64,000 nt of DNA. Source: Dictyostelium discoideum (lineage: Eukaryota). The position numbers and the translations under genes are program-made. Under the pieces are notes generated by a model. That model ran no database searches, had not been told where the DNA came from, and was given only the letters and a program-made list of their open reading frames with translations. Below are positions 4,286 to 10,742 of the stretch, piece by piece. The DNA is taken from assembly GCA_000004695.1 (NCBI GenBank), contig CM000153.2:160001-224000 (forward strand). Reading direction: 5' to 3'. Numbering within the stretch: the first letter of the stretch is position 1; every line of letters starts with the position of its first letter.

Positions 4286-6961
<2,676 letters not shown>

Positions 6962-7135: not shown

Positions 7136-7543
7136 TTATTGAGTGTTCTCACGATCAACTTTAAAAGGTTGTTCTAATGTTGATAAAACTTGATTATAAT
7201 TATTTATGTCAATATCTTGTTGATGTTCAATATCAATTTTTGATTTTTCATTATTTAATGTTTCTTTTGATACTCTAATTGGTAAATTTGATGCAGTTTT
7301 AAAACCTGTGCTTTCTTTATTATCGAATTTATTTACTTTAAAGTTGTTGTTGTTGTTATTGTAATTTGATTGTATTGGTTCTGTATCAATGTTTTCATTA
7401 TCATTTCTACCTCTTTTAGTTGGTGGTGTTTTTTCAACTGATGATATTATTCCTTTAGCTTTCTCAATTGATTCTTCTGTAACTGTAATTGGTTCACCTT
7501 TACCACTTGTAAAATTTGTATTTTGGTTGTGACTTTCGCTCAT
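7136..7543 (-). CDS. Hypothetical small hydrophilic protein (135 aa)
   Basis: ORF MSESHNQNTNFTSGKGEPITVTEESIEKAK...VDRENTQ, charged and low in hydrophobicity, with no recognisable domain. The only support is ORF length and non-repetitive composition. Confidence 0.4.
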   Translation of the reverse strand: MSESHNQNTNFTSGKGEPITVTEESIEKAKGIISSVEKTPPTKRGRNDNENIDTEPIQSNYNNNNNNFKVNKFDNKESTGFKTASNLPIRVSKETLNNEKSKIDIEHQQDIDINNYNQVLSTLEQPFKVDRENTQ

Positions 7544-7773: not shown

Positions 7774-9139
7774 TTATAAAATTAAAATAACAGAAATTAA
7801 AGAAGATAAAATCAAAACAAAGAATGGAGCGAGATAAGATGAAGTACCTGGTTGTGAAGTTTCGGTTGGAGTTGGAGTTGTTGATGGAGTTGGTGATGGT
7901 TCAATTGTTGATTCACCAGTGTAAGTACCATTTGAACAGATAACTTCGTATTTCCAATTAGATGGAACTTGATTTAAAGTTGTAGCAGCTTTTGGAATTA
8001 AAGCAACAACACCTTGAGCAACACGATCACCACCAACATAAGTGTTACCATCATCTCTAGCGGCATGAACAGCGAAACCTCTGCCAACTAAACCAGAGAA
8101 TGAAAAGTAACTAGTTGAGAGATAATAATAGGCATTTTTGAAATCGTTATCAAAGATGCAAAGATTACCTAAATCACCGAAATGTCTTGATGTATTCTCT
8201 GGGAAAGCATGGACTTGTGCGCCTGATAACCAGTGACCACCAATTGAAGCACCATCAACAGTGGTTAAATCACCAAATGCATGAATATGGAAACCATGTA
8301 CACTTTTAGCAACACCACTTACAATACCATTTACTGAAACTGAATTTGATGAAGATCTAAACAAGACGGAACCTCCAATAGCGGCAGATGGAGATTTGGT
8401 GGTATTTGCCAACAAAACCATTGCGTCATATTGAGTATTTGATAAGCTTGAGTAGGCACCAGCAGTATTTGCATTGCCAGTGGTTGTATTAACACCATTG
8501 GTGGCTGGCACATTTGCTGAATTACCAATACCAATAATACATGATGCAACAACGGTTGTCAATGGACCAACTGATGTTCCAACTGATGATTTCAATAAAT
8601 CACATGAATATGACTCTTGGAAAATTGCAATCGATCTTCCAATGATCGAATTTGGTGAGTCAACAATTGATACTGATGTCAAACTATCGAAATTGCTGCT
8701 AATTCTATTATCATTAACATAGAGATTATATAAATCACCTGCTCTGGAACCTCCTGATTGACATTGCTCTGTACCTTTTCCATCAACTTGGAAAACACCA
8801 CCTAAATCAGTATTATTTGATGGATTATAACCATATGTCATAATTGCAGTTGCATATGAACCAGTTGGTAAATTAATTGAACTTATATTATAAACTAAAT
8901 TAAGGGCACCCTTTTTAATAATAATAATAATATTAATAATTAATAAATTTACTTTTTTTTTTTTTTTTTTTATAAATTAAATATTTACTTACATCTTGTG
9001 CAGTTAATGTAACATAACCTGTAATATTTTGATTTACAGTACCAACAGAACCAAATTTACAATAACCATATTGGTAATCTGCTGAAATGATAGAGATTGC
9101 TGATAAAACAATTAATAAAGAGATAATTAATTTATTCAT
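7774..9139 (-). CDS. Extracellular GPI-anchored protein with two tandem Cu/Zn superoxide dismutase domains. Two exons: complement(8993..9139) and complement(7774..8910)
   Basis: Exon 1 gives a signal peptide, MNKLIISLLIVLSAISIISA, plus the start of SOD domain 1 and ends AQD|gtaagt. The acceptor aaaaag|GGTGCC at 8911-8912 keeps the frame, and the intron is 82 nt. Domain 2 keeps the metal-ligand motifs HGFHIHAFGD, RHFGDLGN and GRGFAVHAARDDG...GGDRVAQGVV. Domain 1 is SOD-like (AGDLYNL...IAIFQES...ASCIIGIG) but has lost most His ligands. The C-terminus is S/T/P-rich then hydrophobic (...SSYLAPFFVLILSSLISVILIL), a GPI-anchor signal. It may correspond to the dictyostelid membrane SOD sodC, but I am not sure enough to assign the name. 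Confidence 0.8.
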
Positions 9140-10064: not shown

Positions 10065-10742
10065 TTAACTTTGTTGACCCTTATAACCAAATTTAAGTCT
10101 ATTTTCATAAAATTCAATTAATTGTAATGGTTCTTTATGTTTAAGGATTTCATTTAATACCCAAGATAATTTTTCTTGACCTCTCCATTTAACAAAGAAA
10201 AATAGTGTATTATCTTGACCAAAGGGTTTACAACCTATAATCTCCTCAACACAATGACCATTTTCAAAACCAATACCTTCAATATAGGGTACACCAAATT
10301 TTATATATTCATTTTTTATATATTCTTCATCATCAATTAAATGATTTGTTTTTTGCTGTGTTGATGTATTTGTTGTTGTTGATGTTGCTGCTTTTGTTGT
10401 TTTTGTTGATGATGATGATGATGAAGGTTTGGTGGTTGGTGGTGGTGATGATGATTCTACTGCAGTTTGATCATCATTAACTATAACATTTTTTCTTTTT
10501 CTACTTTTTTTTTTTTCTTGTTCTCTTGAACTTTCAAATTCTTTAACAAGTTCTGGACAACCTGCAACATTATCTTCATCTTCCCATGTATCATAATCTG
10601 CTGTGAATCCTTTCCATCTTATACTATATTGAATCCTTCCATGCTGAACCCTTTTATCTAAAATTTTTTCAACTTCAAAAACATCTCCTGCTTCCTCTGG
10701 TTCTTCTGGTTCTTCTATTATTCTCTTATCTCTTTTTCCCAT
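10065..10742 (-). CDS. Heterochromatin protein 1 (HP1)-like chromodomain plus chromo-shadow domain protein, 225 aa
   Basis: The N-terminal chromodomain is FEVEKILDKRVQHGRIQYSIRWKGFTADYDTWEDEDNV..CPELVKEFE. An acidic S/T hinge follows. The C-terminal chromo-shadow domain is GFENGHCVEEIIGCKPFGQDNTLFFFVKWRGQEKLSWVLNEILKHKEPLQLIEFYENRLKF. It is single-exon. It may be one of the dictyostelid hcp genes, but I have not assigned a name. Confidence 0.85.
   Translation of the reverse strand: MGKRDKRIIEEPEEPEEAGDVFEVEKILDKRVQHGRIQYSIRWKGFTADYDTWEDEDNVAGCPELVKEFESSREQEKKKSRKRKNVIVNDDQTAVESSSPPPTTKPSSSSSSTKTTKAATSTTTNTSTQQKTNHLIDDEEYIKNEYIKFGVPYIEGIGFENGHCVEEIIGCKPFGQDNTLFFFVKWRGQEKLSWVLNEILKHKEPLQLIEFYENRLKFGYKGQQS

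What the first reader, a model, noticed from the sequence alone, without database searches (positions are those of the whole stretch)
7774..9139. GPI-anchored protein with two tandem Cu/Zn-SOD domains, the first catalytically degenerate
Domain 2 has the full set of Cu/Zn ligand motifs (HGFHIH, H.L.GAQVH, RHFGDLGN, AVHAARDDG). Domain 1 keeps the SOD fold signature (…AGDLYNL…IAIFQES…VASCIIGIG) but has replaced most metal-binding His. A signal peptide, an S/T/P stalk and a C-terminal hydrophobic GPI signal place it on the cell surface. A pseudo-SOD domain fused to an active one could act as a scaffold or metallochaperone-like module. It is worth checking whether this is the known membrane SOD or a new paralog.
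Basis: partly seen in the sequence, partly recalled or inferred. Interest (0 to 1): 0.55.

Follow-up and report, generated by a model that had tools for sequence, protein, structure and literature searches.

The report
Dictyostelium sodB: half-dead tandem membrane SOD
This is the already-annotated Dictyostelium discoideum gene sodB, a cell-surface copper/zinc superoxide dismutase built from two fused SOD domains, in which the first domain has lost every metal-binding histidine and most likely survives as the built-in "partner subunit" of the active second domain.

Summary
Minus-strand exons 9139-8993 and 8910-7774, with an 82-nt intron, encode a 427-aa protein. It is identical to D. discoideum XP_639320.1 / UniProt Q54RN1, "Extracellular superoxide dismutase [Cu-Zn] 2" (sodB, DDB_G0283021). 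So this is a known, named paralog of the characterised GPI-anchored SodC, not a new gene.

Pfam Sod_Cu matches both halves (35.5 and 90.4 bits; cut-off 28.9). Domain 2 keeps all seven Cu/Zn ligands, Asp124 and Arg143, but lacks the canonical disulfide and has a shortened electrostatic loop. Domain 1 has no histidine at all.

The dead domain is not decaying. It is present across Dictyostelia and has dN/dS of about 0.45, against about 0.1 for domain 2. Its conserved residues cluster on the SOD1 dimer-interface elements.

Best reading: a single-chain pseudo-dimer with one active site. The scaffold idea is supported. The copper-chaperone idea is not. The gene is ordinary; the domain biology is mildly new.

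The parts
8993..9139 (-). Exon 1 of sodB (codons 1-49): start codon, signal peptide and the first beta-strands of domain 1
   Evidence: Splicing exon 1 to exon 2 gives a 427-aa product identical to XP_639320.1/Q54RN1.
8911..8992 (-). Intron, 82 nt, GTAAGT...AAAAAG, phase 0, AT-rich
   Evidence: An intron sits at the same position in the D. citrinum, D. dimigraforme, D. cf. discoideum and D. firmibasis orthologs.
7774..8910 (-). Exon 2 (codons 50-427 plus stop at 7774-7776)
9083..9139 (-). Signal peptide, residues 1-19 (MNKLIISLLIVLSAISIIS)
   Evidence: Kyte-Doolittle hydropathy reaches 3.1. The mature N-terminus motif ADYQY is conserved (invariant D21, Y22, Y24, C27).
8521..9082 (-). Domain 1 (residues 20-179; the range includes the intron): a SOD-fold domain with no metal ligands, predicted to be the pseudo-subunit
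   Evidence: Pfam Sod_Cu 35.5 bits. Ligand string AMVTRDF. No His. dN/dS 0.41-0.51. Conservation is concentrated on the dimer-interface elements. pLDDT is mostly 80-95.
8434..8520 (-). Inter-domain linker, residues 180-208 (SANVPATNGVNTTTGNANTAGAYSSLSNT), with one N-x-T sequon
   Evidence: It lies between the two HMM envelopes. dN/dS 0.06-0.33.
7996..8433 (-). Domain 2 (residues 209-354): complete Cu/Zn-SOD catalytic domain. Cu ligands H257, H259, H275, H331; Zn ligands H275, H283, H292, D295; also D335 and R345
   Evidence: Pfam 90.4 bits. PDB SOD matches down to E=5e-21. Ligand string HHHHHDH|R. dN/dS 0.05-0.15. C57/C146 are replaced by G/Q, and 9 residues of the electrostatic loop are absent.
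7918..7995 (-). C-terminal extension of domain 2 (residues 355-380) carrying the invariant Cys374
   Evidence: Invariant I373, C374 and G377 in the SodB/SodC alignment. dN/dS 0.05-0.31. A disulfide to the invariant Cys300 is inferred, not shown.
7849..7917 (-). Ser/Thr/Pro-rich stalk (residues 381-403)
   Evidence: Sequence ESTIEPSPTPSTTPTPTETSQP.
7777..7848 (-). GPI-attachment-type signal (residues 404-427): small-residue omega region G404-T-S406, a short spacer, then a hydrophobic tail running to the last residue
   Evidence: Hydropathy 2.2-2.8 to the C-terminus with no cytosolic tail. S406 is invariant. The same layout occurs in P0013 (putative SodC) and in the corrected D. firmibasis ORF.

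Best explanation
The gene is D. discoideum sodB (DDB_G0283021). It encodes a secreted, probably GPI-anchored, glycosylated cell-surface Cu/Zn superoxide dismutase.

It descends from an older family of tandem, two-or-more-domain extracellular Cu/Zn-SODs in which both domains were active. In the dictyostelid lineage the N-terminal domain lost all its metal ligands but was retained.

The two domains fold back on each other into an intramolecular pseudo-dimer with the geometry of the classical eukaryotic SOD1 homodimer. Domain 1 therefore acts as the structural partner subunit, stabilising and orienting the one catalytic domain. Domain 2 alone binds one Cu and one Zn and dismutates extracellular superoxide close to the membrane. 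Domain 2 is tethered through its own C-terminal extension, an S/T/P stalk and the GPI anchor.

Shown here: gene identity, the two Sod_Cu domains, the ligand status of each, purifying selection on domain 1, the distribution of the architecture, and a confident model with SOD1-dimer-like geometry.

Inferred: GPI anchoring of SodB itself, catalytic activity, one Cu/Zn per chain, the stabilising role of domain 1, and the disulfide pairings.
For: Identity: exact match to XP_639320.1/Q54RN1. sodB = DDB_G0283021, listed as plasma membrane (PMC12572271), and transcribed in growing cells (PMC5685611).

Domains and ligands.

Domain 1 is retained under selection. The dead-d1/live-d2 layout occurs in D. 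purpureum, Cavenderia fasciculata, Polysphondylium violaceum and Synstelium polycarpum. dN/dS of d1 is 0.41-0.51 (bootstrap 95% CIs between 0.27 and 0.81, P(>=1) <= 0.0025). dN/dS of d2 is 0.05-0.15.

Interface: conservation within d1 averages 0.63-0.68 on the segments homologous to SOD1 beta1, the early Zn loop, residues 111-115 and beta8, against 0.42-0.44 elsewhere (permutation P = 0.0006 and <0.0001). The former metal and electrostatic loops are the least conserved. The F50/G51 equivalents are kept in both domains: Y75-G76 and F261-G262.

Ancestry: 64 non-dictyostelid two-domain relatives were compared, most with both domains HHHHHDH|R. SodB d1 is closer to their d1 (42/64, P=0.0017) and d2 to their d2 (48/64, P=3.7e-6). 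The four-Cys pattern of d1 is shared with theirs.
Against: No experiment on SodB was accessible. The primary SodC papers could not be read.

The pseudo-dimer rests on one AF2 model built from a 33-sequence alignment. I could not inspect its coordinates or PAE. AF2 may favour familiar SOD packing.

The interface residue set was defined from human SOD1 (review statement plus textbook knowledge), and it overlaps fold-critical glycines.

dN/dS of d1 is 4-6 times that of d2 and reaches 0.80 in the closest pair. So part of d1 may be nearly neutral, or under diversifying selection for some other function.

No GPI predictor was run.
Confidence: 0.65

Rival explanations
1. Domain 1 has taken on a new, non-catalytic function at the cell surface, such as binding a ligand, a partner protein or a glycan, or coupling the SOD to Ras/PI3K signalling. 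Scaffolding would then be secondary.
For: dN/dS of d1 is much higher than that of d2 (0.41-0.80 against 0.05-0.15). That pattern is compatible with surface residues evolving under a different or diversifying regime. The former metal and electrostatic loops are free to vary. The paralog SodC has a signalling phenotype (Ras/PI3K; cited in PMC13081876). In CSRPs, Cu-less repeats are suspected of non-SOD roles.
Against: No new conserved motif or non-SOD Pfam domain appears in d1. What is conserved in d1 maps to the dimer-interface elements rather than to a new surface. No site-specific test for positive selection was run.
Confidence: 0.2
2. Domain 1 pairs with domain 2 of a second molecule, giving domain-swapped dimers or chains on the membrane, rather than pairing within one chain.
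For: The same interface elements would be conserved in either case. Classical SOD1 dimerises between chains. The roughly 29-residue linker would allow either topology.
Against: AF2 predicts a compact intramolecular arrangement with pTM 0.88 from a single chain. That arrangement superposes on a tethered dimer. Intramolecular pairing is favoured by effective concentration (inference).
Confidence: 0.1
3. Domain 1 is a CCS-like metallochaperone module that acquires copper and hands it to domain 2.
For: CCS domain II is also a SOD-like domain without a Cu site that docks on SOD1 through the dimer interface. CCS structures appear among the structural hits: 1do5 and 6fp6, 1jk9, 1ej8.
Against: Copper handling by CCS depends on the Atx1-like domain I (MxCxxC) and the CxC of domain III (established knowledge; review). 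SodB has neither. Pfam finds only Sod_Cu. Domain 1 has no His and one Met, and its four Cys match the pattern of the live first domains of relatives.
Confidence: 0.04
4. Domain 1 is a functionless relic of a duplicated SOD domain, drifting towards loss.
For: All metal ligands are gone, and d1 evolves 4-6 times faster than d2 at non-synonymous sites.
Against: dN/dS is significantly below 1 in five species pairs. The domain is full-length, still scores above the Pfam cut-off and folds confidently. It is retained in both paralogs and in all the dictyostelid genera sampled. 27 columns are invariant in the SodB/SodC/D. purpureum alignment.
Confidence: 0.04

Closest known systems
Dictyostelium discoideum SodC, the GPI-anchored Cu/Zn-SOD that restrains basal Ras/PI3K activity (Veeranki, Kim & Kim 2008, J Cell Sci; cited)
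   Same: Paralog about 11 gene numbers away, judging from locus tags. About 40% identity over 99% of the length. Same signal peptide, dead domain 1, live domain 2, C-terminal extension with a conserved Cys, and a small-residue plus hydrophobic GPI-type tail.
   Different: It is a different gene (407 against 427 aa). SodC has no long S/T/P stalk. Only SodC has genetic and biochemical characterisation. In the accessible papers SodB appears only as a qPCR marker. That P0013 is SodC is my inference, from its length, its species and His245/His247 matching the published catalytic mutant as I recall it. I could not verify this.
CSRP, the Cu-only SOD repeat proteins of animals and Capsaspora (Peterson & Culotta 2026, PMC13017621)
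   Same: Extracellular, GPI-anchored or secreted proteins built from tandem SOD-fold domains. [quoted passage not shown] A chaperone or structural role has been proposed for those dead repeats.
   Different: CSRP repeats are Cu-only: no Zn site and no electrostatic loop. They keep the canonical disulfide, number 4-12, and are described only from opisthokonts. Their modelled inter-repeat contacts are stated to be 'very different from' the SOD1 dimer interface. SodB domain 2 keeps the full Zn site, lacks the canonical disulfide, and is predicted to pack against domain 1 in SOD1-dimer geometry.
CCS domain II paired with SOD1 (the copper-chaperone heterodimer)
   Same: A SOD-fold domain without a functional Cu site that docks on an active SOD domain through the SOD1 dimer interface. 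CCS structures are among the structural matches.
   Different: CCS is a separate cytosolic protein with Cu-binding domains I and III, and it pairs only transiently. SodB domain 1 is covalently fused, extracellular and has no Cu-binding motif.
Tandem Cu/Zn-SOD repeat proteins of Physarum, Thecamonas trahens, chytrids (Borealophlyctis, Obelidium) and many metagenomic eukaryotes
   Same: Same sub-family features: C57/C146 replaced by Gly/Ala and mostly Gln, Cys at hSOD1-equivalent positions 6, 73/74, 126 and 147, a signal peptide, often a hydrophobic C-terminus, and positional orthology of d1 and d2.
   Different: In most of them every domain keeps HHHHHDH|R, so all domains look live, and the repeat number ranges from 2 to 10 or more. 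The dictyostelid proteins are the two-domain branch with a fully dead first domain.
6dtk, an engineered single-chain tethered human SOD1 heterodimer
   Different: It is an artificial construct. Its sequence identity to SodB is only 22-24%.

Membership tests
Cu/Zn superoxide dismutase (Pfam PF00080 Sod_Cu), domain 2 | Profile match above the curated cut-off | tested here: met
   90.4 bits against a cut-off of 28.9, covering profile positions 3-133 of 133. PDB SOD matches down to E=5e-21.
Cu/Zn superoxide dismutase, domain 2 | Four Cu ligands (H46, H48, H63, H120) and four Zn ligands (H63, H71, H80, D83), plus Arg143 and Asp124 | tested here: met
   H257, H259, H275, H331; H275, H283, H292, D295; R345; D335. 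All are invariant in the SodB/SodC/D. purpureum alignments.
Cu/Zn superoxide dismutase, domain 2 | Conserved intrasubunit disulfide C57-C146 | tested here: not met
   Gly and Gln occupy these columns in all dictyostelid sequences. Invariant Cys300 and Cys374 may form a substitute disulfide (inference).
Cu/Zn superoxide dismutase, domain 2 | Full-length electrostatic loop (loop VII) | tested here: not met
   hSOD1 positions 128-136 have no counterpart in domain 2.
Cu/Zn superoxide dismutase, domain 2 | Superoxide dismutase activity and Cu/Zn occupancy | not testable with these tools
   This needs a purified protein or an in-gel activity assay.
Cu/Zn superoxide dismutase, domain 1 | Profile match and SOD beta-barrel fold | tested here: met
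   35.5 bits against 28.9, E=1.5e-8. Domain 1 of the confident model superposes on one half of the SOD1 dimer.
Cu/Zn superoxide dismutase, domain 1 | Metal ligands | tested here: not met
   A/M/V/T/R/D/F at the seven positions. Only the D83 equivalent is kept, and even that is lost in D. purpureum. Domain 1 has no His.
CSRP (Cu-only SOD repeat protein) | Repeats lack the Zn site and loop VII but keep the Cu site and the canonical disulfide | tested here: not met
   The live domain keeps all Zn ligands and lacks the canonical disulfide. CSRP definition taken from PMC13017621.
CSRP | 4-12 tandem repeats separated by linkers of 5-9 residues | tested here: not met
   Two domains, with a linker of about 29 residues.
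CSRP | N-terminal repeat(s) without a Cu site; extracellular, GPI-anchored or secreted | tested here: met
   This is a resemblance in design only.
CSRP | E110/D113 signature of Cu-only SODs | not tested
   Not aligned to C. albicans SOD5 here.
CCS copper chaperone | Atx1-like domain I with MxCxxC, and a domain III CxC motif | tested here: not met
   Pfam finds only Sod_Cu. Cys occur only at 27, 99, 152, 173, 300 and 374, with no CxC or MxCxxC motif.
Dictyostelid SodB/SodC-type membrane SOD | Full-length homology to the SodC-type paralog with the same domain order | tested here: met
   39-41% identity over 99% of the length to P0011-P0014. Exact identity to Q54RN1.
Dictyostelid SodB/SodC-type membrane SOD | N-terminal signal peptide and C-terminal GPI-attachment signal | tested here: inconclusive
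   The sequence features fit: a hydrophobic N-terminus, and G404-T-S406 followed by a spacer and a hydrophobic tail to the last residue, with S406 invariant. No SignalP or GPI predictor was available, and there is no experiment on SodB.

The most novel reading that the evidence does not exclude
Dictyostelid membrane SODs (SodB and SodC) are obligate single-chain pseudo-heterodimers, with one live and one dead subunit fused in SOD1-dimer geometry. They are the degenerate end of an unrecognised Amorphea-wide family of tandem, disulfide-shifted, Zn-retaining extracellular Cu/Zn-SOD repeat proteins (Amoebozoa, apusomonads, chytrids). That family parallels the opisthokont Cu-only CSRPs, and its N-terminal domain lost its metal site independently of theirs.
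Probability: 0.5. Interest if true: 0.45.

Novelty: new variant of a known kind. Interest (0 to 1): 0.3.

Why it matters
The gene itself is not new. sodB is annotated and its paralog SodC has been studied.

What the accessible literature does not describe is that these amoebal surface SODs are half-dead tandem enzymes predicted to form an intramolecular SOD1-type dimer. Nor does it describe that they belong to a wider family of tandem Cu/Zn-SODs outside animals, a family the recent CSRP review (PMC13017621) does not mention.

If confirmed, three things would follow:
- It would be a natural example of the tethered, one-active-site SOD dimers that have so far been engineered for ALS research.
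- It would be a second, independent case of N-terminal SOD repeats becoming pseudo-enzyme partners.
- It would be a practical caution for sodC/sodB genetics: the roughly 180 N-terminal residues are a structural domain, not a dispensable leader.

It does not open a long-standing question.

Tried and rejected
1. The first AlphaFold run, on the full-length protein with an 11-sequence alignment, gave pLDDT 37.7. I discarded it. The second run used the trimmed ectodomain and 33 sequences.

2. The first word-indexed homolog search returned only 13 proteins, probably because low-complexity words swamped it. A trimmed profile returned 30. The exhaustive HMM search with the domain-1 profile was the informative one.

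So I could not list UniProt organisms with the same two-domain fold.

4. The primary SodC papers (Veeranki 2008; Castillo 2017) are not held, and a search for 'H245R' found nothing. I therefore cannot say whether those authors noted the N-terminal SOD-like domain. Equating P0013 with SodC remains an inference.

5. I looked for a second SOD gene in the window with tblastn. There is none.

6. I rejected the metallochaperone reading because domain 1 has no Cu-binding motif.

7. I rejected the neutral-relic reading because of dN/dS and phyletic retention.

8. I could not read the model's coordinates or PAE. The disulfide pairings (C27/C99/C152/C173 in domain 1; C300-C374 in domain 2) and the exact interface contacts therefore remain inferences.
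Full report
**What is at the locus**

The window is AT-rich (about 20-25% G+C) and carries poly-N and poly-Q coding tracts, which is typical of a dictyostelid. On the minus strand, an ATG at 9139 opens a 49-codon exon that ends at 8993. It is followed by an 82-nt intron (8992-8911, GTAAGT...AAAAAG). A second exon runs in phase 0 from 8910 to the stop at 7776-7774.

The spliced 427-aa product is identical, residue for residue, to D. discoideum AX4 XP_639320.1 / EAL65954.1 / UniProt Q54RN1, "Extracellular superoxide dismutase [Cu-Zn] 2". A 2025 paper lists this gene as sodB, DDB_G0283021, plasma membrane (PMC12572271). It has been used as a qPCR marker in growing cells (PMC5685611). The gene is therefore already annotated and named. 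No other SOD gene lies in the window.

**Checking the observation**

Pfam Sod_Cu matches twice. The N-terminal half alone scores 35.5 bits (E=1.5e-8; curated cut-off 28.9). The C-terminal half scores 90.4 bits (E=1.7e-25) over the whole profile.

I aligned both halves to human SOD1, together with the halves of six orthologs and paralogs:
- Domain 2 has every Cu ligand (H257, H259, H275, H331), every Zn ligand (H275, H283, H292, D295), Asp124 (D335) and Arg143 (R345).
- Domain 1 has Ala, Met, Val, Thr, Arg, Asp and Phe at the seven ligand positions.
- The protein contains only seven histidines, all in domain 2, so domain 1 has none.
- Residues 1-19 are a hydrophobic signal-type sequence.
- Residues 381-403 are a Ser/Thr/Pro stalk.
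- The C-terminus is G404-T-S406, then a short spacer, then a hydrophobic run that continues to the last residue with no cytosolic tail. This is the pattern of a GPI-attachment signal rather than a transmembrane anchor.

It is slightly understated, since domain 1 has lost all of the ligand histidines, not most of them.

**Two departures from a textbook SOD in domain 2**

- The canonical C57-C146 disulfide is absent. Gly and Gln occupy these positions in all dictyostelid sequences.
- Nine residues of the electrostatic loop (hSOD1 128-136) are missing.

Two other cysteines are invariant in the SodB/SodC alignment: Cys300, and Cys374 in a conserved 26-residue C-terminal extension. They may form a substitute disulfide. 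That is an inference.

**Is domain 1 a decaying relic?**

It is not.
- The same layout, a dead first domain and a live second domain, is found in the 407-aa D. discoideum paralog P0013. I take this to be SodC. It is about 40% identical over 99% of the length, and its HGFHVH motif puts His at 245 and 247.
- It is also found in four D. purpureum proteins, in Cavenderia fasciculata, in Polysphondylium violaceum and in Synstelium polycarpum.
- I fetched the orthologous loci from D. citrinum, D. dimigraforme, two D. cf. discoideum isolates and D. firmibasis. Synteny and intron position are conserved.
- Nei-Gojobori dN/dS is 0.41-0.51 for domain 1, and 0.80 in the closest pair. For domain 2 it is 0.05-0.15.
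- Codon bootstraps give P(dN/dS >= 1) <= 0.0025 for domain 1 and P(d1 > d2) >= 0.999.

Domain 1 is thus several-fold less constrained than the catalytic domain, but it is clearly under purifying selection.

**What is being preserved in domain 1**

I used twelve dictyostelid sequences mapped to hSOD1 numbering.
- Mean conservation in domain 1 is 0.63-0.68 on the segments homologous to beta-strand 1, the early Zn loop (49-54), residues 111-115 and beta-strand 8 with the C-terminus.
- Elsewhere in domain 1 it is 0.42-0.44 (permutation P = 0.0006 and < 0.0001).
- The former Zn loop and electrostatic loop are the least conserved parts.
- Domain 2 shows no such bias.

The review PMC13017621 names beta1, beta8 and the early Zn loop as the elements that form the SOD1 dimer interface. 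I added residues 111-115 from general knowledge of the interface. The Phe50-Gly51 pair is kept in both domains, as Y75-G76 and F261-G262. From general knowledge, replacing this pair monomerises human SOD1.

**Structure**

A first AlphaFold run with 11 sequences failed (pLDDT 37.7). A second run used the mature ectodomain (residues 20-383) and 33 sequences, including diverse two-domain relatives. It gave pLDDT 84.9 and pTM 0.88.

Against the PDB:
- Foldseek's top hits are the three chains of 6dtk, an engineered single-chain tethered SOD1 dimer. They align over 346-350 columns with TM 0.82-0.83 normalised to the target. Ordinary SOD monomers cover only about 150 columns, with TM of about 0.35 on the query.

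A single rigid-body superposition that covers both halves means the model places domain 1 against domain 2 essentially as the two subunits sit in a classical Cu/Zn-SOD dimer. CCS domain II structures are also among the hits.

**Where the architecture came from**

An exhaustive HMM search of 1.84 billion representative proteins with a domain-1 profile found 507 hits at E <= 0.001. I scored the ligand columns of every SOD domain in the top 150.
- Dozens are proteins of 350-450 aa with a signal peptide, two SOD domains and a hydrophobic C-terminus. In most of them both domains are HHHHHDH|R and C57/C146 are replaced, usually by Gly or Ala and Gln.
- Others have 3-12 such repeats.
- Named sources include Physarum polycephalum (6 repeats), Thecamonas trahens (4), Clastostelium, Luapelamoeba, and the chytrids Borealophlyctis and Obelidium.
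- SodB domain 1 is closer to the first domain of these relatives (42/64, Wilcoxon P=0.0017). Domain 2 is closer to their second domain (48/64, P=3.7e-6).
- Domain 1 keeps their four-Cys pattern at hSOD1-equivalent columns 6, 74, 126 and 147.

So the tandem arrangement came first. The dictyostelid lineage later lost the metal site of the first domain.

**Mechanism proposed**

SodB is a single-chain pseudo-dimer.
- Domain 2 binds one Cu and one Zn. It dismutates superoxide at the outer face of the plasma membrane, held there by its C-terminal extension, a probably O-glycosylated stalk and a GPI anchor.
- Domain 1 supplies the partner subunit that eukaryotic Cu/Zn-SODs normally obtain by homodimerisation.

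Shown: gene identity, domain content, ligand status, selection, distribution, and the predicted geometry.

Inferred: the anchor, the activity, the stoichiometry, the stabilising role of domain 1 and the disulfides.

**Rivals**
- Domain 1 may have an added binding or signalling function. This is compatible with its elevated dN/dS and is not excluded.
- Pairing could be intermolecular, by domain swapping. This is less likely given the compact single-chain model.
- The copper-chaperone role is unlikely. Domain 1 has no His, no CxC or MxCxxC motif and no Atx1 domain.
- The neutral-relic reading is rejected.

**Comparison with what is known**

The nearest characterised relative is SodC, the GPI-anchored SOD that regulates Ras and chemotaxis (cited). 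I could not read that paper, so I cannot say whether its authors noted the N-terminal SOD-like domain.

In design, SodB resembles animal CSRPs, whose N-terminal repeats have always lost the Cu site and are suspected of a chaperone-like role. It fails the CSRP definition on four counts:
- the Zn site is retained;
- the canonical disulfide is absent;
- there are two domains rather than 4-12;
- it is not from an opisthokont.

CSRP inter-repeat contacts are also reported to differ from the SOD1 interface. SodB resembles the CCS domain II-SOD1 pair in geometry, but it has none of the Cu-handling parts of CCS.

**Verdict**

The finding is real and was accurately described, but the gene is already known. 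Three things are modestly new:
- the evidence that the dead domain is a selected structural partner;
- the prediction that it sits in SOD1-dimer geometry;
- the recognition of a wider tandem Cu/Zn-SOD family around it.

I classify it as a new variant of a known kind, with interest about 0.3.

Noticed in passing
L005:1001-2938 (D. firmibasis, protein P0010 / RB653_001705): The deposited 549-aa gene model fuses sodB to the downstream small gene by splicing out the stop codon. Read through, the ORF is 431 aa and ends in the same GPI-type tail (...QPGASSYLSPLFALILSLISIILIL*).
   Followed up: yes
window 7136-7543 (-): This 135-aa ORF lies immediately downstream of sodB. It is the conserved neighbour in D. 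citrinum, D. dimigraforme and D. cf. discoideum, and the orthologs carry only a 'faint' PF00634 BRCA2-repeat hit. Its function is unclear.
   Followed up: partly
window 10065-10742 (-): This 225-aa ORF lies upstream of sodB. The neighbouring gene at the orthologous position in D. cf. discoideum has Chromo plus Chromo_shadow Pfam hits, so this is probably an HP1-like chromodomain protein.
   Followed up: partly
window 4286-6961 (+): This 891-aa ORF has a poly-Gln run of about 45 residues and a poly-Asn run of about 45 residues. It is conserved as an opposite-strand neighbour of 872-936 aa in the other species.
   Followed up: no
Proteins P0018-P0034, P0021 (Physarum), P0024 (Thecamonas), P0038/P0175 (chytrids): There is a large family of extracellular tandem Cu/Zn-SOD repeat proteins with 2 to 10 or more domains. 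They keep the Zn ligands and have C57/C146 replaced. The family occurs in Amoebozoa, an apusomonad, chytrids and many metagenomic eukaryotes. The 2026 CSRP review has no occurrence of 'Amoebozoa' or 'Dictyostelium'. A separate set (P0023, P0030, P0032, P0034, P0060, P0084) has HHH.E.H strings and looks like Cu-only CSRP-type repeats.
   Followed up: partly
Proteins P0016 and P0022 (D. purpureum DICPUDRAFT_149619 and DICPUDRAFT_149620): Two dead-d1/live-d2 paralogs have consecutive locus tags on one 115,666-bp contig. This suggests a local tandem gene duplication in D. purpureum, which has at least four such genes (with P0015 and P0165).
   Followed up: no
Protein P0014 (D. citrinum, SodC-type paralog), domain 2: The HMM-based ligand string reads HHHHDDH, i.e. 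Asp at the H80 (Zn-ligand) column. This could be a real substitution or a local misalignment.
   Followed up: no
Protein P0135 (Paradermamoeba levis transcriptome) and P0111 (metagenome): These are two-domain SODs outside Dictyostelia with a ligand-less first domain and a second domain that lacks only the H120 equivalent (HHHHHDK / HHHHHDN). They may represent independent domain decay in other amoebae.
   Followed up: no
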